From positions 90,700 to 154,699 of the IMG/VR virus record IMGVR_UViG_3300021387_000090: DNA of 64,000 nt; one strand, written 5' to 3'. The notes beneath the pieces were generated by a model that was not told the origin of the DNA, made no database searches, and saw only the letters and a program-made list of their open reading frames with translations. Source of the stretch: a virus (lineage: Duplodnaviria > Caudoviricetes). Below are positions 2,581 through 14,322 of the stretch, in pieces; position 1 is the stretch's first letter, and the number at the start of each line of letters is the position of its first letter. The translations under genes and the position numbers were made by a program.

Positions 2581-2719
2581 TCGGAGTGATAGGATTCGAA
2601 CCTATAACACACAGTTCCTTGTTCCTATGAAGTAAGTGTTATACTGCTTCATTTTACATGAGAATAATAATAACACTCAAATATATTATACTGTTGCTCT
2701 ACCGTTAAGCTACACTCCG
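2581..2719 (-). ncRNA. tRNA scaffold whose anticodon loop is replaced by a permuted Y-RNA-like module
   Basis: CGGAGTG/CACTCCG-A acceptor, GCTT-AACGGT-AGAGC D arm, ACAGT/ACTGT anticodon stem, ATAGG-TTCGAAT-CCTAT T arm; insert contains TATTC-TCAT..ATGA-AGCAG..ACTTC. Confidence 0.75.
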
Positions 2720-2877: not shown

Positions 2878-2950
2878 TCGGAATAGAGAGACTTGAACTC
2901 TCGCCTCATCGGTTAAAAGCCGATTACTCTACCAACTGAGTTATATTCCG
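2878..2950 (-). tRNA. tRNA-Lys(TTT)
   Basis: Canonical cloverleaf; ATCGG-CT-TTT-AA-CCGAT anticodon arm. Confidence 0.9.
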
Positions 2951-2986: not shown

Positions 2987-3298
2987 TCATCCAGACTTAT
3001 CTGTAAGTTCAAAAAATTTATAACCATGATACAAAAAATAAATATAATCCCAATTCGTATCATAATTATCATTACCGCACCAGTCTTCTCTGTTAATTTC
3101 TATATCCAAAATTTTCGCAAGTTTTTCAAGATTAGTTATCTGAATTGCTTTTTCGTGAAATGTGTCAGCAACTGTAATTGATTCAAAGGATTTTCTTCTC
3201 ATTTTTTCGGCTTTAATCTGCATATTCAACCATTTATATGCGTTGTCCATTTCTCTCATTTTCATTCTTTCTCCAAATAATTTTTTGGTTAAACTCAT
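2987..3298 (-). CDS. Hypothetical protein inside the tRNA cluster
   Basis: 103 aa ORF with phage-like composition. Confidence 0.55.
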   Translation of the reverse strand: MSLTKKLFGERMKMREMDNAYKWLNMQIKAEKMRRKSFESITVADTFHEKAIQITNLEKLAKILDIEINREDWCGNDNYDTNWDYIYFLYHGYKFFELTDKSG

Positions 3299-3964: not shown

Positions 3965-4074
3965 ATAAAAGTAGTTTTTTTATAGAAGATGCTACTAAAC
4001 TTCTTGTTATCCTTGTTGCACTACCTATAATTTTAAATGCCCAATGGACCATACCTCCATTCGATAGGATAAAA

Positions 4075-4148
4075 TACTTCTAAAAGGATTTGAACCTTTA
4101 TTTCTATTGATAAAATAGAAAGTCTAACCGAACTTAACTTATAGAAGT
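4075..4148 (-). tRNA. AU-rich tRNA-like gene, apparent anticodon TAT (Ile)
   Basis: ACTTCTA/TAGAAGT acceptor, TCTAT-TT-TAT-CA-ATAGA arm, AAAGG-TTCAAAT-CCTTT T arm; atypical C at position 37. Confidence 0.55.
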
Positions 4149-4375
4149 ACCAAATAATAAAAATCTTACTCAACGCCTAGACATTATTAAGGGGTCTGCG
4201 TTGCCTTCTTCCTTATCCTCATCCACTCCTCAGATTTTTATTAAATAAAATAATTAATTAATTAATTGAAGAGAAATCACACCTTTTTCTTCATATGGGG
4301 GTGTCTATTTAACATATAGATACGTTATCAGATATATCATTTCACTGATAAAAAGATTCACTTTGGGGAATCTAG

Positions 4376-8100: not shown

Positions 8101-8570
8101 CTAACTTTTTGCCTTCAAGCATACAGATCCCAGTATGTGCCATAACGATGGCCTTTTCTCTATCAGTCATTTGACACCTTCTTCCCAGTATGGTTGTTGT
8201 ACACTAACGAAATAACCGCTTCCATTATATCACCGACCGTATCCTGAAAAATTGGATGATCGATTTCGCAACCCCAGATGTGACCAAACATATCCTGTAA
8301 CTCATTTTCAAATTCTTCTCGTGTTAATCGTGCGGATGGTAGTTCAGATAATATATCCTCTATGCTAGAAGATATAGTTTGACCATCACTTTTAAAATCA
8401 AGAATTGCATCATAATTTTTATGTACTGCATCAATTGCCTCTTGTAAATAGATCGTATCATCCATTCGATCTATCTTCTCTGTATGTTTCATTGTATCTA
8501 CGACTCCATACCTTGTTTTAGGCTCAAGAGCAATAATGGGCGCTTGGAAATATCCGTCATCACCGTGCAA
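5133..8570 (-). repeat. Tandem run of ~9 mosaic paralogous ORFs (DUF551-like WIPxxERLP...AWMPLPEPY and zinc-ribbon modules)
   Basis: Recurrent motifs ISRxAAI, LPSAQPE, RWIPC, WMPLPEPYREEG and YCPNCGAKM in ORFs 5133-5789, 5786-, 6081-, 6415-6861, 6858-7229, 7219-, 7589-8170 and 8163-; overlapping start and stop codons. Confidence 0.75.
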
Positions 8571-9242: not shown

Positions 9243-9786
9243 TTCTTCTCCTCATATGTCTCAATTGTTGTACCATAATAGTGCTTATCAGGATATGATC
9301 TTTCCACAATGATATGATAATCAGTAATATCATCTTTTACGAAACTATGAACCATTAAAAGATCATCACGGTCTAAGAAGAATATACAATGTTTTACAAT
9401 CCACCAAAGTATTTTACTCATCATCTATCTCCGTCATTTTTGCACCACAATAGGGGCATTCCTTTTCTAATGGCTTTGGATGTTCTACACCATAACATCT
9501 ACCATTACCACAATGAGTACATTCATAATATGGATCACCACCCGGAGTACATACACCACGGATTCGAATCCATTTCGCTTTCAAATCAGATTCAACAATA
9601 GGACAGGAATCAGGACAAGCAATATATAATCCAGAGTGCGCACTAATTAATTCCTTTGTTACTGCACATTGAATAGAGTCATCAAACGGATTCCATTTTG
9701 CTAAATAGCACATATCACACGAAGATGGTTTGTCTAATCCTCTTATAAAAACTGACATTATATAACTCCTTTCCTGTTGTAGTAAA

Positions 9787-9860
9787 TTGGGAATGTGAGA
9801 TTCGGACTCACGACACACGGCTTATAAGGCCGCCGCTCTAACCGACTGAGCTAATTCCCA
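9787..9860 (-). tRNA. tRNA-Ile(TAT)
   Basis: TGGGAAT/ATTCCCA acceptor, GCGGC-CT-TAT-AA-GCCGT; T loop TCCGAAT. Confidence 0.85.
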
Positions 9861-9861
9861 C

Positions 9862-9952
9862 TGGCGGGGCCTGAAGGATTTGAACCATCGCACGACTTTC
9901 ATCGCCTAGCTGATTTCAAGTCAGCCCTCTTCAACCACTTGAGTAAGACCCC
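9862..9952 (-). tRNA. tRNA-Ser(TGA)
   Basis: GCTGA-CT-TGA-AA-TCAGC, long variable arm, G73 and encoded CCA. Confidence 0.9.
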
Positions 9953-9956
9953 AGAA

Positions 9957-10029
9957 TTGCCAACCGTGGAATTGAACCACGACCTCTTCCGTTATAGCTG
10001 GAGTGTGCTATCCTTTACACCAATTGGCG
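9957..10029 (-). tRNA. Degenerate tRNA, anticodon undetermined (possibly decayed fMet)
   Basis: Good D and T arms, C1:A72 mismatch, distorted anticodon arm TCCAGCTATAACGGA. Confidence 0.5.
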
Positions 10030-10161
10030 TTTGCCTTCCATATCCTCACAACTGTTCGTGTGTTGATCAGACACAACCCTCGTACCTACACTCTTGCTAA
10101 AACCCGCCTTGTTGACTCTACTTTTTGAAAGGCACTATAATAAAGGATCCTTATTAACTAA

Positions 10162-10686
10162 TTAAGGCCATTCACCTAATGGCTTACCTACATTAGCCAC
10201 ATCAGTACAGAAATGCACTGGAATATTTTCAAATATTTCTTTTGCAATATCCTGATACAAAGTGGATCTCATTCCATTAATATCACCAAGATTGTCATTA
10301 TAATACTGAACCACCTGATTCCTAAATACAACAAAATCCATTTGCATTGCATAAGGATTATCTACCGAATGAAAATAAGATACAATAGGATTATTCTTAA
10401 AAGCTGCCTGAATAAGTTCAAATGGACTCATTTCATTTGTGGGATTAGCAGGAATAACAATAATCTTAATACAAACATTTCCGAAATATTTCTCAGAGGG
10501 GAGAAGCTGTGTTAATGCATCTGCTTTTTCACTACCAGTCACATACAACTTGATCTCATCTGTATTTTCATTAAAAACAATTTTAATATCAGGATCTTCC
10601 TTAAACAACTCTTCTAACTCGTTATAATACTCACACCAAGGTGGTGACAAATTCAATTCATTACTATTTCTAACTTCTTCGTCCAT
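10162..10686 (-). CDS. Conserved hypothetical protein
   Basis: 174 aa ORF with AGGAGA RBS. Confidence 0.7.
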   Translation of the reverse strand: MDEEVRNSNELNLSPPWCEYYNELEELFKEDPDIKIVFNENTDEIKLYVTGSEKADALTQLLPSEKYFGNVCIKIIVIPANPTNEMSPFELIQAAFKNNPIVSYFHSVDNPYAMQMDFVVFRNQVVQYYNDNLGDINGMRSTLYQDIAKEIFENIPVHFCTDVANVGKPLGEWP

Positions 10687-10790
10687 AGTTTTTAATCTCC
10701 TTACTTATTATTTAAACCATAACTCTATTTATCTTTGCGGTTATTTGTCGTTTGGTGGAAATCATTTTCTTTTTTTGAGTCATGATTTAG

Positions 10791-10863
10791 AGCCGCCAGA
10801 GGGACTTGAACCCCCAACCTGCTGATTACAAATCAGCTGCTCTACCAATTGAGCCATGACGGC
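10791..10863 (-). tRNA. tRNA-Thr(TGT)
   Basis: Canonical cloverleaf; GCTGA-TT-TGT-AA-TCAGC. Confidence 0.92.
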
Positions 10864-10918
10864 AAATGGATGGCCTGATTACCCATCCTGCAGCAGTTTG
10901 CTCCTGCTTGCCAAGTTA

Positions 10919-11014
10919 AAGCTGAGAATAATAAAACGAGTTTATATAATACAACACCCATCATCAAAAAAACTTACCTACTTGTTAGAAGTAACTCGTT
11001 TTCCGCTTCAGCTT
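10919..11014 (-). ncRNA. Y-RNA-like unit A (non-tRNA cargo loop)
   Basis: AAGCTGA-AGCGG-AAAACGAGTT-ACTTC ... AACTCGTTTT-ATTATTC-TCAGCTT; downstream of Ro60 gene. Confidence 0.75.
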
Positions 11015-11034
11015 ATCTGAAAGGACTTTTTATC

Positions 11035-11140
11035 AACCGAGAATATTTGAAGAGTTCATATGGGATTCGAACCCACTTAGTTAGATTTACAGTCTAGTGA
11101 TAAACCAAATATCGAAGTAACTCTTCAGGCCGCTTCGGTT
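11035..11140 (-). ncRNA. Y-RNA-like unit B (D, anticodon GTA/Tyr and T arm cargo)
   Basis: AACCGA-AGCGG-CC-TGAAGAGTT-ACTTC, GATA-TTTGGTT-TATC, CTAGA-CTGTAAA-TCTAA, GTGGG-TTCGAAT-CCCAT, AACTCTTCA-AATATTC-TCGGTT. Confidence 0.8.
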
Positions 11141-11158
11141 ATATTAATATTCATGTTA

Positions 11159-11272
11159 ATAGCCGAGAATAATGATAGGGTTTTATACCTTGGGATTCGA
11201 ACCCAAATAATCCAATTACCAATTAGAAGCATTACCATTATGCGAAGTAACCCTAACAACCGCTTCAGCTAT
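11159..11272 (-). ncRNA. Y-RNA-like unit C (D, anticodon GGT/Thr and T arm cargo)
   Basis: ATAGCTGA-AGCGG-TTGTTAGGGTT-ACTTC, GCAT-AATGGTA-ATGC, TCTAA-TTGGTAA-TTGGA, TTGGG-TTCGAAT-CCCAA, AACCCTATCA-TTATTC-TCGGCTAT. Confidence 0.8.
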
Positions 11273-11288
11273 ATAATTTATCATCATA

Positions 11289-11421
11289 ATAGACGAGAAT
11301 AAGATAACAGTTTTTTAGTATCTTTCAATTGGAATCGAACCAATAATAGTTTTCTTAAAAGGAAAATGACTTAACCGTTTGTCTATAAAAGAGAAGTAAC
11401 TGTTATAACCGCTTCGCCTAT
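11289..11421 (-). ncRNA. Y-RNA-like unit D (complete tRNA-Lys(TTT)-like cloverleaf cargo)
   Basis: ATAGGCGA-AGCGG-TT-ATAACAGTT-ACTTC, acceptor TCTTTTA/TGAAAGA, TTTTC-CTTTTAA-GAAAA, ATTGG-TTCGATT-CCAAT, AACTGTTAT-CTTATTC-TCGTCTAT. Confidence 0.8.
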
Positions 11422-11427
11422 ATTTTA

Positions 11428-13092
11428 TTACTGTTTATTTCGTTTTCTATTATCTTTTTCTTGATCTTTCTGATCCCATAACTTGATCATAGCATCAGCA
11501 AAAACAAGTTCTTTACCAGTCCAACCATACATAATGTTTGTTCTATATCCGTATTCAGGAACCAATACATTACTGTATCCCGCAGTTTGTACACAGAACA
11601 CATTTACTTTAGGATTAACTTTGTTTCTGTATTCCTGAATAAGTTTGGCTACATCAATGTAAGTTATTCCACAGCAAAAACCAGCTTCTCTATATTCACG
11701 CTCACCTTGAAGTGTTCCATAAAGCCCACCATGACCAGCTTGCATATCTGAATAGATAAAGATATTATCCCAATGTTCTTTCTTTTTGATGGCGTCTCTA
11801 AAGAAAATCCAAACACCATTTTCTGTACCGCCACCGACATCTCTACTCCGTCCACTGGTAATTTTTTCAGCCTGTGTTAATACACCATTCCGTTTGGAAA
11901 TGGGCGTAATAATTAACTCATCCCCAAACTTACCAACATACCCCTCGTCGCTATTCTTGGCAGTAATAACAGAACTTAGATTATCAATCTCCGCAACAGT
12001 CACGCTACCATACTCAGAATTAAAAGCGCCCCATGCAGATCCGCTATTATCAGAAAGACACATTGTCTTACCTTTTAGCTTCGGCATATTATCACAAGCA
12101 ATATCAATACATTCTTCCAAAGCATCAAGTACTATGGGCTTATGATATATGTCTGCCTTTTCAAGCATTTTATATGCAGACCAATAACGGAAAGGGAACT
12201 GCTTTCCATTGATTACACCTTTCTTCAGATAATCAAGGATTCTTTTACATAAATCAGCATCCAAAATCTCTGTAAAGATATTCCTTAAATTACGAAGGAG
12301 GCTCATGTGATTAAGAACTTTGGCATCCCAAATCTCTCTCCAAGTTTTTCCTGCGGATTTTAATCTTTCCCACGTTGACTCATTATCTTCTACTTTAATT
12401 GTACCAGTGGTCATTAATTCATCAATCACTGAATTATTTGCATGACAAATTCTTACGGTATCAATCATGCCCACGTTTGCGTTTTTATATTTCGCCAGTT
12501 CATATCTGGTTCCATTCTTCAAACGCTTTGCCCAAGATCTTTTTAAAATAGAAGGAATATGATTCTTCTTTCCGTTTCTATACAGCCAATAAGTAAGCTG
12601 AGAACTAGGTTCGTCTGCTCTACTCATTACCTGATAATTAATTTCAGAGAAAAGACCGGGATGTTCTTCGTCAAACTGTACTCTCTTTGGATGCATTGCA
12701 GCACGAACCATAATCACTTGCGGATTCAACCGCATATAATAATCTTTTCGTAATTCCAAAGCCCAACGAATGGTAGCTTCAAAATCTGCATCCAGAGCGT
12801 CATCAATAACTGTTTCCATTACTTCAGAAGTCTTTTTACCATTCCACTGATCACCAATTACAGCATAATCAGCAAAGGTTCTATTCAATGTAAAAATACC
12901 ATCAAGGACTCCTTTTTGGGCAAATTCACCAGTTCTATAATACTGAGGTTCGCCCATGATCGAGGATGCTGTAACCATTTTCATTGTTTCCACGGGAGAA
13001 AGTCCATAAGATATACCCCCCATATAATTGGTTTGGGCCTTTTTTGTTTCTGTAGTTCTCTTTTCTGTTACCGCTCTAGCCATTCTACTCAT
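11428..13092 (-). CDS. rsr: Ro60/Rsr-like TROVE-domain RNA-binding protein with C-terminal vWA domain
   Basis: 554 aa; TROVE hallmarks SLLRNLRNI and QFPFRYWSAY; MIDAS-like DNSGS and IYSDMQ; flanked by Y-RNA-like repeats. Confidence 0.9.
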   Translation of the reverse strand: MSRMARAVTEKRTTETKKAQTNYMGGISYGLSPVETMKMVTASSIMGEPQYYRTGEFAQKGVLDGIFTLNRTFADYAVIGDQWNGKKTSEVMETVIDDALDADFEATIRWALELRKDYYMRLNPQVIMVRAAMHPKRVQFDEEHPGLFSEINYQVMSRADEPSSQLTYWLYRNGKKNHIPSILKRSWAKRLKNGTRYELAKYKNANVGMIDTVRICHANNSVIDELMTTGTIKVEDNESTWERLKSAGKTWREIWDAKVLNHMSLLRNLRNIFTEILDADLCKRILDYLKKGVINGKQFPFRYWSAYKMLEKADIYHKPIVLDALEECIDIACDNMPKLKGKTMCLSDNSGSAWGAFNSEYGSVTVAEIDNLSSVITAKNSDEGYVGKFGDELIITPISKRNGVLTQAEKITSGRSRDVGGGTENGVWIFFRDAIKKKEHWDNIFIYSDMQAGHGGLYGTLQGEREYREAGFCCGITYIDVAKLIQEYRNKVNPKVNVFCVQTAGYSNVLVPEYGYRTNIMYGWTGKELVFADAMIKLWDQKDQEKDNRKRNKQ

Positions 13093-13109
13093 ATTATTTT
13101 CTCCTTTTA

Positions 13110-13204
13110 AATTCGTGAATATTTAAGAGTGCTTAAAAATATATGTAGGGAAGATTTCAAGTCTTTTCTTTATAATTGAAGTAACACTCTTACCGCTACG
13201 AATT
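13110..13204 (-). ncRNA. Y-RNA-like unit E (Ser TGA anticodon-hairpin-like cargo)
   Basis: AATTCGT-AGCGG-TAAGAGTGTT-ACTTC ... AAGA-CTTGAAA-TCTT ... AGCACTCTTA-AATATTC-ACGAATT; ends just before the Ro60 RBS. Confidence 0.75.
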
Positions 13205-13225
13205 GAGACATATGTTCGCCTCACA

Positions 13226-13297
13226 CTGGGCTAACTGGATTCGAACCAGCGAATGCAGGAGTCAAAGTCCTGTGCCTTACCGCTTGGCGATAGCCCA
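13226..13297 (-). tRNA. tRNA-Gln(TTG)
   Basis: Canonical cloverleaf; CAGGA-CT-TTG-AC-TCCTG. Confidence 0.92.
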
Positions 13298-13348
13298 TCG
13301 TTCTATGTATATTCTAATCTTAAACCCTTAACTCTTACTACATCATGG

Positions 13349-13378
13349 ATTATATCATATTACCCAAGCCTTTGTCAA
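13349..13378 (-). promoter_or_regulatory. SigmaA-type promoter for the tRNA-Gln / Y-RNA / Ro60 operon
   Basis: TTGACA-18nt-TATAAT with extended TG. Confidence 0.75.
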
Positions 13379-13437
13379 TAGCTTTTTTCTCACTAAATGT
13401 ATTTTCTATTCTTTAGCCCCGGCTTTAAACCGGGTAC

Positions 13438-14322
13438 TTAAATCAAATAACTTCTATACTGTCGTAAAAAATCCCATCTAAAGCGGCTTATATTATATTG
13501 ATTTTTTACTTTATCATACAATTCCTGTGTAGCAATTACTGTATATGGCTGTATATTATTTTGCTTTGCCAAACAATTAATATAATGAACTATACCAGCG
13601 GTTACAATATCTGTTACAGAACAATTATATTCCATTTCTTTTAATGCTTTAACCACCTGCGCATAGATCTTTTTGTATCTTATAATAGGATCAGTTGAAG
13701 AATCCTTCTGATAAAAATCTTTTAAGATCCGACCATTATCAATAAGATCTCTCGTAGAATGGCCCCAGGGTACAGAGTCTTCTTCTTTTGCTTGATGGAT
13801 CACTTTCAATAATTCATCAGAAATTGTAACTGTCCTGTCAATCAATTTCAATTCATGTCCATTAATATCCTCTTCTTTTGCATCAAGAAGATCCCGAAAA
13901 TTATTTTTGCCGCCAACTTCAAATAGCATCAGCATAACATATTTCATTCTTGCTGTTCGAAGTTCTTTAAGATGCAACAGAAAATCTTCACGAGTAATAA
14001 GCTGATCTTTGATTCCTTTTTCAGTAAGAATATTTTCAATTTCTGTACTGTTTATTCTGCGGGCTTCATTTACTTTACAGTATCCTTTCTGGATGCACCA
14101 ATCTATATAAATTGTAATTATGTTTTTGTACTTTTCTATGGTATAAAAGCGTTTACTTTCTGTAGTCTGAAGAAGAAATAATATTTCTTCTTTTGAAAAA
14201 TCACATACGTCTTTTTCAAACAATTCCTCAATTTCAGAAATAGAACGGAACAAAGAATCAGTTAAGTCATTACGGTTTATATCCGAATTTATAAAATCAT
14301 TTTTTCTATCTTCGTTATACAC
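13438..14322 (-). CDS. SPbeta YopR/MrpR-like repressor (tyrosine-recombinase fold, catalytic residues not evident)
   Basis: MYNEDRK..F start, E..FEKDVCDFSKEEI and YIDWC motifs; adjacent to a YopQ-like gene. Confidence 0.65.
   Translation of the reverse strand: MYNEDRKNDFINSDINRNDLTDSLFRSISEIEELFEKDVCDFSKEEILFLLQTTESKRFYTIEKYKNIITIYIDWCIQKGYCKVNEARRINSTEIENILTEKGIKDQLITREDFLLHLKELRTARMKYVMLMLFEVGGKNNFRDLLDAKEEDINGHELKLIDRTVTISDELLKVIHQAKEEDSVPWGHSTRDLIDNGRILKDFYQKDSSTDPIIRYKKIYAQVVKALKEMEYNCSVTDIVTAGIVHYINCLAKQNNIQPYTVIATQELYDKVKNQYNISRFRWDFLRQYRSYLI

What the first reader, a model, noticed from the sequence alone, without database searches (positions are those of the whole stretch)
11289..11421. 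A complete tRNA-Lys(UUU) cloverleaf caged inside the Y-RNA handle
Seen in sequence: unit D keeps a full 7-bp acceptor stem (UCUUUUA/UGAAAGA) inside the handle, whereas units B and C have none and unit E has only an anticodon hairpin. A separate ordinary tRNA-Lys(UUU) exists at 2878-2950. Inference: D, B/C and E may be stages of tRNA capture and trimming. Alternatively D is a Ro-protected precursor from which a replacement tRNA-Lys is released by processing.
Basis: partly seen in the sequence, partly recalled or inferred. Interest (0 to 1): 0.7.

Follow-up and report, generated by a model that had tools for sequence, protein, structure and literature searches.

The report
Phage Y RNA enclosing a whole tRNA-like fold
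Six bases after a phage's Ro60 gene lies a small RNA whose Ro60-type "handle" encloses a complete tRNA-shaped fold with a lysine anticodon; comparison with relatives indicates a tRNA mimic belonging to a widespread Y-RNA variant that I did not find described, rather than a spare tRNA-Lys awaiting release.

Summary
On the minus strand at 11392-11320, ARAGORN and the Rfam tRNA model (58.9 bits) call a complete tRNA-Lys(UUU) cloverleaf. It has a 7-bp acceptor stem and is nested in a two-helix handle (11421-11289) that starts 6 nt after a TROVE/Ro60 gene.

It is one of five handle units in a single operon. It belongs to a family I recovered beside Ro60 homologues in more than 30 phage and bacterial contigs. 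Its stems covary strongly: 91% of cells are paired, against 59% after shuffling.

The tRNA arms run in natural order with the handle extending the acceptor end. Published YrlA RNAs are the opposite: circularly permuted and without an anticodon loop.

The "tRNA-Lys" reading is weak:
- Orthologues of unit D keep the D and T arms but carry anticodons GCU, UUA, GCA, UGG, AGG or UUU, and acceptor stems of 3-8 bp.
- The domain is not a copy of the phage's real tRNA-Lys.
- It has U73, 27% GC and -7.6 kcal/mol, no better than its shuffles.

Most likely it is a Ro60-bound tRNA mimic. RNase P cleavage remains possible.

This scan has noted phage Ro60-plus-handle RNA arrays before on other DNA. I rate it a new variant of a known kind.

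The parts
13349..13378 (-). Consensus sigma-70-type promoter (TTGACA, 18-nt spacer, TG, TATAAT; 12 of 12 matches) heading the operon
   Evidence: No terminator-like site was found on either strand between 9300 and 13600.
13226..13297 (-). Ordinary tRNA-Gln(UUG), first gene of the transcript
   Evidence: 63.2 bits.
13093..13204 (-). Unit E: the same handle enclosing only an anticodon-arm-like hairpin (loop CUUGAAA). It abuts the Ro60 ribosome-binding site.
11428..13092 (-). Ro60 / TROVE-domain protein, 554 aa
   Evidence: Pfam TROVE E 7.8e-6. PDB 9KOP/9L5Y phage Ro60 E 6.3e-11. 60% identity to Bacillus phage G gp540, annotated as a TROVE ribonucleoprotein.
11289..11421 (-). Unit D, the whole Y-RNA-like unit (133 nt). 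It starts 6 nt after the Ro60 stop codon.
   Evidence: Model R1 scores 114.5 bits.
11412..11418 (-). GGCGAAG, an exact match to the bacterial Y-RNA motif GNCGAAN0-1G, at the top of the outer stem
   Evidence: Sequence. The motif is defined in PMC4201824.
11393..11400 (-). GUUACUUC, the conserved 5' motif joining the upper handle stem to the tRNA-like domain
   Evidence: It is also present in Bacillus phage G units, which were found through the protein and not through this motif.
11320..11392 (-). tRNA-like domain in natural order. Acceptor 5' strand 11392-11386, anticodon UUU 11359-11357, acceptor 3' strand 11327-11321, discriminator U at 11320.
11295..11302 (-). UUAUUCUC, the conserved 3' handle motif that leads into the outer stem
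11160..11272 (-). Unit C: handle plus tRNA-like domain, loop UUGGUAA (GGU), 4-bp acceptor
11030..11142 (-). Unit B: handle plus tRNA-like domain, loop CUGUAAA (GUA), acceptor at most 1 bp
10915..11016 (-). Unit A: the same handle with no tRNA-like cargo
   Evidence: Model R1 scores 35.8 bits.
10791..10863 (-). Ordinary tRNA-Thr(UGU) closing the array
   Evidence: 71.4 bits.
2878..2950 (-). The phage's ordinary tRNA-Lys(UUU), with discriminator A. Used for comparison; it is not part of the Y RNA.

Best explanation
Unit D is a phage Y RNA, that is, a partner RNA of the Ro60 protein encoded immediately upstream. It is cut out of one long transcript: promoter, tRNA-Gln, unit E, Ro60, units D, C, B, A, tRNA-Thr.

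Its base-paired 5' and 3' ends form a two-helix handle carrying the GGCGAAG, GUUACUUC and UUAUUCUC motifs. I infer that this handle is the Ro60-binding part.

Its second module is a tRNA mimic: a complete cloverleaf in natural order (acceptor, D, anticodon, T) attached to the handle through the acceptor end. I infer that the functional form is the intact, or at most nicked, Ro60-bound RNA, which presents a tRNA shape to some tRNA-recognising factor. This would parallel the way Yrn1 tethers Ro60 to PNPase.

The UUU triplet and the full 7-bp acceptor are lineage-specific states of a fast-changing part of the molecule. They are not signs of lysine decoding.

Shown here: the fold, the gene context, the family and its covariation, and the non-conservation of anticodon and acceptor.
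Inferred: Ro60 binding, the tether or mimic role, and absence of release.
For: Context:
- The unit starts 6 nt after a TROVE/Ro60 gene on the same strand.
- There is a single strong promoter and no terminator-like site.
- The motif GGCGAAG equals GNCGAAN0-1G of bacterial Y RNAs.

Family:
- RNA-motif scans alone recovered units in 18 further IMG/VR loci. Ten of these have a TROVE homologue in the fetched stretch.
- About ten more units lie in bacterial genomes or MAGs, eight of them beside TROVE genes.

Structure (20-unit MAFFT alignment):
- 18 of 21 pairs show compensatory changes.
- 91.1% of cells are paired, against 59.4% after shuffling and 35-49% when the partner is slid. The covariation score is 0.83 against 0.23, reached by 0 of 500 shuffles.
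- The acceptor register is real. Mean contiguous pairs are 3.8 in register and 0.3-1.0 when slid. Seven of 35 units have 7-8 bp, against none when slid.

Against a decoding role:
- Orthologues of D share its D arm, variable loop and T arm but carry GCU with 5 bp (L003), UUA with 3 bp (L008), GCA with 4 bp (L016, L019, L031, L035), UUU with 6 bp (L034), UGG with 8 bp (L029, L036) and AGG with 7 bp (L038).
- Several family units put Ser, Leu or Tyr anticodons on bodies with 4-5-nt variable loops.
- D is unlike the phage's own tRNA-Lys.
- D has U73, 27% GC and -7.6 kcal/mol (z +0.57). The real tRNA-Lys and tRNA-Thr give -23.5 and -30.9 kcal/mol (z -3.0 and -3.7) and are over 50% GC.
Against:
- GUUACUUC, GGUUCRA and AUUCUC are invariant in my alignments partly because I searched with them.
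- Anticodon-loop positions 32, 33, 37 and 38 stay tRNA-like across the family: Y32 in 19 of 23, U33 in 19 of 23, R37 in 22 of 23 distinct loops. The loop therefore does something.
- A fifth of units keep an exact 7-8-bp acceptor, and one (L020) encodes ACCA right after it. That is what a processed tRNA would need.
- A 7-bp acceptor is the reported determinant that lets RNase P cut M. smegmatis YrlA.
- In the L016, L019, L031, L035 and L017 units the loop CUGCAAC is kept while the stem covaries. Anticodon loops are therefore not always free to drift.
Confidence: 0.6

Rival explanations
1. Nicked Y RNA. Host RNase P cuts unit D at the 5' end of its 7-bp acceptor, and possibly the 3' side is trimmed and given CCA. 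The pieces stay paired through the handle and bound to Ro60, as reported for M. smegmatis YrlA.
For: - The 7-bp acceptor plus 5-bp T stem gives the 12-bp stack that RNase P measures (established knowledge).
- Chen et al. attribute RNase P cleavage of M. smegmatis YrlA, with both halves recovered with Rsr and CCA added in vivo, to its 7-bp acceptor.
- The unit has a full T/D elbow.
Against: - In natural order, cuts on both sides of the tRNA would free it completely. Only a 5' cut leaves a nicked particle.
- Close orthologues with 3-5-bp acceptors should be poor substrates, so cleavage cannot be essential to the conserved function.
- The bases flanking the cut would be C at -1 and U at +1, not the preferred U at -1 and G at +1 (my knowledge).
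Confidence: 0.15
2. Ro60-caged pre-tRNA. RNase P and RNase Z release a working second tRNA-Lys(UUU), for instance one that replaces or resists damage to the host tRNA-Lys.
For: - All cloverleaf elements and the natural anticodon loop CUUUUAA are present.
- None of the phage's genuine tRNAs encodes CCA either, so the host must add it.
- UUU loops recur in five family lineages: unit D, L003 unit 3 (which has the same anticodon arm as L008 unit 2), L034 and L038.
Against: - The anticodon and acceptor are not conserved in orthologues.
- U73 replaces the A73 seen in the phage's real tRNA-Lys.
- The free 73-mer is predicted to be very unstable, at -7.6 kcal/mol and z +0.57.
- The phage already has a normal tRNA-Lys(UUU).
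Confidence: 0.1
3. Anticodon-arm display. The array shows different tRNA anticodon arms (UUU, GGU, GUA, UGA) on Ro60 as decoys or sensors for host anticodon nucleases. Unit D would be the Lys(UUU) bait.
For: - Loop positions 32, 33, 37 and 38 are kept tRNA-like while positions 34-36 differ between units.
- The loops match natural Lys, Thr, Tyr and Ser loops (my knowledge).
- Each of the three closest phages has one unit with CUUUUAA, though in different unit classes.
- The phage carries an Rnl2-type RNA ligase elsewhere in its genome.
Against: - This rests on only two independent origins of UUU in the close clade, in AT-rich sequence.
- Orthologous units change triplet freely.
- Some triplets are nonsense or unnatural (UUA, CUA, AAG, AGG).
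- No nuclease or defence link was tested.
Confidence: 0.1
4. Decaying tRNA pseudogene that happens to sit in the array.
For: Very low GC, weak predicted stability and an odd U1-A72 / U73 end.
Against: - D and T arms are nearly identical across phages whose Ro60 proteins are only 74-76% identical.
- There are compensatory changes in every helix.
- Matched indels keep the acceptor paired.
Confidence: 0.04

Closest known systems
YrlA, the tRNA-like Y RNA of bacteria and actinophages (Chen et al. 2014, PMC4201824; Wang et al. 2018, 10.1101/312249)
   Same: It is encoded beside Ro60 on the same strand. It has a terminal stem with GNCGAAN0-1G and an effector module with a tRNA D/T elbow. Several Y RNAs are cut from one precursor.
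   Different: YrlA is circularly permuted (T arm, closed acceptor hairpin, D arm). It has no anticodon loop, and its handle sits where the anticodon stem would be. Unit D has natural order, a true 5-bp/7-nt anticodon arm, and the handle on the acceptor end. No Rfam family other than tRNA matched it at E up to 10, nor in ten related loci at gathering score.
Deinococcus radiodurans Yrn1
   Same: The paper describes Yrn1 as having the opposite orientation to YrlA, with an anticodon-arm-like stem-loop between D-like and T elements. Unit D has this topology.
   Different: Yrn1 has no full D arm, a 6-nt loop and no variable arm. Unit D is a complete cloverleaf that tRNA finders accept. I did not test sequence homology to Yrn1.
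M. smegmatis YrlA cut by RNase P (Chen et al. 2014)
   Same: A 7-bp acceptor stem inside a Y RNA. This is the precedent for tRNA-processing enzymes acting on a Y RNA.
   Different: There the cut opens a closed acceptor loop and the halves stay joined by the handle. Here, cuts at both tRNA ends would free the tRNA-like part entirely.
Thermus phage phiLo Ro60 with Yrl1 and Yrl2 (PMC12135203)
   Same: A phage Ro60, the closest solved structure to this protein, with adjacent Y-like RNAs that carry a CGAA motif in a stem-bulge-stem.
   Different: The passages I read do not describe Yrl1 or Yrl2 as tRNA-like. They lie upstream of the gene.

Membership tests
Bacterial/phage Y RNA (Ro60 partner RNA, criteria of Chen et al. 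2014) | Encoded within about 4 kb of a Ro60/TROVE gene, on the same strand | tested here: met
   The unit starts 6 nt after the stop codon of the TROVE ORF 11428-13092.
Bacterial/phage Y RNA (Ro60 partner RNA, criteria of Chen et al. 2014) | 5' and 3' ends pair into a stem, supported by covariation | tested here: met
   All 6 pairs of the outer stem and 4 of 5 pairs of the upper stem show changes on both sides. 85% of cells are paired.
Bacterial/phage Y RNA (Ro60 partner RNA, criteria of Chen et al. 2014) | GNCGAAN0-1G motif near the 5' end | tested here: met
   GGCGAAG at 11418-11412. Sister units have GCUGAAG or ACCGAAG. Distant family members have GUAGUG-type variants instead.
Bacterial/phage Y RNA (Ro60 partner RNA, criteria of Chen et al. 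2014) | Bound by Ro60 in vivo or in vitro | not testable with these tools
   No RNA-protein tool is available, and no read data could be obtained.
YrlA subfamily | Permuted order (T arm, closed acceptor hairpin, D arm) with no anticodon loop | tested here: not met
   The order is acceptor, D, anticodon, T. YrlA is defined.
YrlA subfamily | Match to a curated Y-RNA covariance model | tested here: not met
   In 9500-13500, only tRNA and chance-level hits appear at E up to 10. In ten related loci, only tRNA and tmRNA reach gathering score.
Elongator tRNA-Lys(UUU) | Cloverleaf with 7-bp acceptor, conserved D- and T-loop bases and anticodon UUU | tested here: met
   ARAGORN call and Rfam tRNA 58.9 bits. 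U8, A14, GG in the D loop, U33 and UUCGA in the T loop are all present.
Elongator tRNA-Lys(UUU) | Discriminator A73, a LysRS identity element (my knowledge) that is present in the phage's real tRNA-Lys | tested here: not met
   U at 11320. The tRNA at 2878-2950 has A.
Elongator tRNA-Lys(UUU) | Anticodon and acceptor conserved among orthologues | tested here: not met
   Orthologues carry GCU, UUA, GCA, UGG, AGG or UUU, with acceptors of 3-8 bp.
Elongator tRNA-Lys(UUU) | Stability and GC content like the genome's other tRNAs | tested here: not met
   27% GC and -7.6 kcal/mol (z +0.57), against over 50% GC and -23.5 / -30.9 kcal/mol.
Elongator tRNA-Lys(UUU) | Mature free ends, CCA addition and aminoacylation | not testable with these tools
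   This needs tRNA sequencing or charging assays.

The most novel reading that the evidence does not exclude
The Ro60 operon encodes a set of Y RNAs that display whole tRNA bodies or anticodon arms. Unit D is the Lys(UUU) member. It would either bait or sense host anticodon nucleases on the Ro60 ring, or be released by RNase P and RNase Z as a damage-resistant substitute tRNA-Lys. Either way, Ro60/Y RNA would be a phage counter-defence aimed at tRNA-cleaving immunity.
Probability: 0.12. Interest if true: 0.85.

Novelty: new variant of a known kind. Interest (0 to 1): 0.55.

Why it matters
Y RNAs and Ro60 are conserved from bacteria to humans, yet the role of the tRNA-like module is still unknown. 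The published bacterial examples are permuted tRNAs without an anticodon loop.

This locus, and the family I recovered around it, shows that many phages and some bacteria instead hang a natural-order tRNA look-alike on the Ro60 handle. It can be complete, with an anticodon arm.

Two features of the family are informative:
- Acceptor length and anticodon triplet vary freely.
- The elbow and the shape of the anticodon loop are kept.

That narrows what the partner factor can be reading. It also gives a natural series (3- to 8-bp acceptors) for testing when tRNA-processing enzymes act on Y RNAs.

A practical point: such units are called as tRNA genes by standard finders. That inflates phage tRNA counts and produces apparent suppressor tRNAs (UUA, CUA).

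Tried and rejected
- **Literature.** The supplementary tables of Chen et al. 2014 are not held. Two Wolin-lab reviews are not held either. I therefore could not check whether natural-order units were already listed for Bacillus phage G or other phages. Full-text searches found no paper describing them.
- **Recent capture of the phage's tRNA-Lys.** Rejected. The two share little beyond universal tRNA positions and the anticodon loop CUUUUAA.
- **Thermodynamic support.** Rejected as evidence; the z-scores are -1.29 and +0.57.
- **RtcB next to Ro60, as in Salmonella.** Absent from the whole 154.7-kb genome. The T4 Rnl1 family search rang nowhere, not even in the controls, so it says nothing.
- **Genome contigs pattern scan.** It returned 32 hits. 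By my own rough estimate this is about the number expected by chance for that pattern. Only hits with a TROVE neighbour or a model R1 score of about 48 bits or more, roughly ten, are counted as members.
- **Model R1 hits under about 45 bits.** These are ordinary tRNAs matching the inner part of the model and were ignored.
- **Ro60 tree to polarise acceptor length.** I considered it but did not build it. Too few D-class loci carry a full Ro60 gene.

Full report
**What is there.** The window is part of a complete 154,699-bp phage genome with terminal repeats. On the minus strand one consensus promoter (13378-13349) is followed by tRNA-Gln, a small structured unit E and a 554-aa ORF (13092-11428). 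Four more units follow: D 11421-11289, C 11272-11160, B 11142-11030 and A 11016-10915. Then comes tRNA-Thr(UGU). No terminator-like site lies in between.

The ORF is a Ro60 homologue:
- Pfam TROVE.
- The only solved-structure matches are the Thermus phage phiLo Ro60 entries 9KOP and 9L5Y, at E 6e-11.
- It is 60% identical to Bacillus phage G gp540, annotated as a TROVE ribonucleoprotein.

**The observation.** Unit D starts 6 nt after the Ro60 stop codon. ARAGORN calls tRNA-Lys(UUU) at 11320-11392. The Rfam tRNA model gives 58.9 bits over its full length. That is within the range of this phage's accepted tRNAs (33-71 bits).

The minimum-energy fold of the 133-nt unit has these parts in order:
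- an 8-bp outer stem;
- an internal loop;
- a 9-bp upper stem;
- a second internal loop;
- a cloverleaf with the 7-bp acceptor UCUUUUA/UGAAAGA.

Two details need correcting. Unit C has a 4-bp acceptor made partly from the conserved motif, and unit B has essentially none. Unit E holds only a hairpin with a 7-nt loop. Energy alone is not convincing (z -1.29). The case rests on the covariance score and on relatives.

**Family and structure.** The five units share this layout: outer stem, G-N-C/U-G-A-A-G-C-G-G, upper stem, GUUACUUC, cargo, upper-stem complement, UUAUUCUC, outer-stem complement.

Relatives came from several searches:
- The Ro60 protein led to three near-identical phage contigs (76% amino-acid identity).
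- An RNA pattern led to a fourth (74% identity). All have the array just after the gene.
- A looser RNA pattern without the 5' motif found 18 further IMG/VR loci. Ten contain a TROVE homologue within the fetched DNA.
- Bacillus phage G, reached only through the protein, has GUUACUUC-type hairpin units upstream of its TROVE gene.
- A scan of reference genomes gave about ten credible members, in Ruminococcus, Lachnospiraceae, Clostridia, Christensenella, Saprospiraceae, Verrucomicrobiia and Mycoplasmatota assemblies. Eight of the scan's 32 hits lie next to TROVE genes. The remaining hits are about what chance predicts.

In a 20-unit MAFFT alignment, 18 of 21 predicted pairs show compensatory changes. 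91% of cells pair, against 59% after shuffling and 35-49% when the partner is slid. The covariation score is 0.83 against 0.23, reached by 0 of 500 shuffles.

One caveat applies. GUUACUUC, GGUUCRA and AUUCUC are invariant partly because I searched with them.

**Topology.** In every tRNA-like member the order is D arm, anticodon arm, T arm, with the handle continuing from the acceptor end. Published YrlA RNAs are the reverse: T arm, closed acceptor hairpin, D arm, no anticodon loop, and the handle in place of the anticodon stem. Chen et al. note that D. radiodurans Yrn1 has the other orientation, with a partial D region and a 6-nt loop. Unit D has that orientation but is a complete tRNA look-alike. 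No Rfam family other than tRNA recognises it or its relatives.

**Is it a tRNA-Lys?** Orthologues of D are recognisable by the D arm UAG-N-CAA-NN-GGU-W-AAG-N-CA. They keep the D arm, variable loop and T arm almost unchanged, but differ in the anticodon arm and the acceptor:

| Unit | Anticodon | Acceptor |
|---|---|---|
| This phage, unit D | UUU | 7 bp |
| L003 | GCU | 5 bp |
| L008 | UUA | 3 bp |
| L016, L019, L031, L035 | GCA | 4 bp |
| L034 | UUU | 6 bp |
| L029, L036 | UGG (L029 has an 8-nt loop) | 8 bp |
| L038 | AGG | 7 bp |

Several points bear on this:
- Acceptor length changes by matched indels on both strands, so a helix is maintained whatever its length. Across 35 units the mean contiguous pairing is 3.8 bp in register and at most 1.0 out of register. 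Seven units have 7-8 bp. A whole tRNA inside the handle is thus a recurrent state of the family, not a peculiarity of this phage.
- Between D and its closest orthologue, by my count, the anticodon arm differs at 10 of 17 positions. The D arm differs at 1 of 19 and the variable-plus-T region at 3 of 22.
- Across the family, loop positions 32, 33, 37 and 38 stay tRNA-like while 34-36 vary.
- Ser, Leu and Tyr triplets, and nonsense triplets, sit on bodies with short variable loops.
- D is not a copy of the phage's own tRNA-Lys.
- D has discriminator U where the real tRNA-Lys has A.
- D is 27% GC in a genome whose real tRNAs are over 50% GC.
- As a free 73-mer it folds at only -7.6 kcal/mol. That is no better than its shuffles, against -23.5 and -30.9 kcal/mol for the real tRNA-Lys and tRNA-Thr.

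**Most likely mechanism.** I conclude, at about 60%, that unit D is a Ro60 partner RNA whose effector module mimics a tRNA. It would work as the intact or nicked particle.

RNase P nicking is a real possibility, at about 15%. The same authors link a 7-bp acceptor to RNase P cleavage of M. smegmatis YrlA. But 3-5-bp orthologues show that this cannot be the conserved function.

Full release of a decoding tRNA-Lys (about 10%), an anticodon-arm decoy or sensor role (about 10%) and plain decay (about 4%) are the rivals. The conserved anticodon-loop shape, the recurrence of CUUUUAA and CUGCAAC loops, and one unit with an encoded ACCA (L020) keep the more adventurous readings alive.

**Novelty.** I found no paper in the held library describing natural-order, anticodon-bearing tRNA modules on Ro60 handles. 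However, key reviews and the 2014 supplementary tables were not available. Earlier notes of this scan report phage Ro60-like genes with handle RNA arrays, and one natural-order case, on other genomes. I rate it a new variant of a known kind and moderately interesting. The specific tRNA-Lys story is not supported.

Noticed in passing
window 2581-2719 (minus): Rfam calls a 139-nt tRNA (51.5 bits). It has a normal acceptor, D and T arms. The anticodon loop is replaced by a hairpin carrying the handle motifs in reverse order: UUAUUCUC, a 5-nt loop, then UGAAGCAG and CUUACUUC. So the Ro60-type handle is grafted into a tRNA with free ends, the mirror image of unit D. L003 has a similar 132-nt tRNA hit at 8140-8271.
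   Followed up: partly
window 13093-13204 (minus): Unit E ends immediately before AAAAGGAG and the Ro60 start codon. Ro60 binding there could affect its own translation.
   Followed up: no
genome C1:80269-80733 (minus), outside the window; locus L028: An Rnl2-type RNA ligase domain (PF09414, 86.7 bits) lies in a 350-aa open frame. No RtcB is present anywhere in the phage.
   Followed up: no
L015, L023, L017, L011, L031 (IMG/VR contigs): Model R1 gives many full-length hits per contig, interleaved with ordinary tRNAs. This suggests large arrays of handle-embedded tRNA-like units in some phages. Scores under about 45 bits may be plain tRNAs.
   Followed up: partly
L020:12638-12786 (minus): A family unit with a 7-bp acceptor followed directly by ACCA, that is, an encoded discriminator plus CCA inside the handle. 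Its anticodon is CAG, on a body with a short variable loop.
   Followed up: no
L066 (Lachnospiraceae rumen MAG RUG11868, 16.6-kb contig): It carries a Ro60 homologue 65% identical to this phage's, with a family unit just upstream. Together with the Ruminococcus RUG and sheep-colon Clostridia hits, this hints at a rumen or gut Firmicute host.
   Followed up: no
window 9957-10029 (minus): ARAGORN reports a tRNA with a two-base anticodon ('at'); Rfam tRNA gives 33.5 bits. L003 has the same oddity at 3094-3165. There are also two tRNA-Ile(UAU) calls, at 4074-4149 and 9787-9860.
   Followed up: no
L036:1473-1873 (minus): A tmRNA gene (104 bits) lies on the same short metagenome contig as three handle units.
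   Followed up: no
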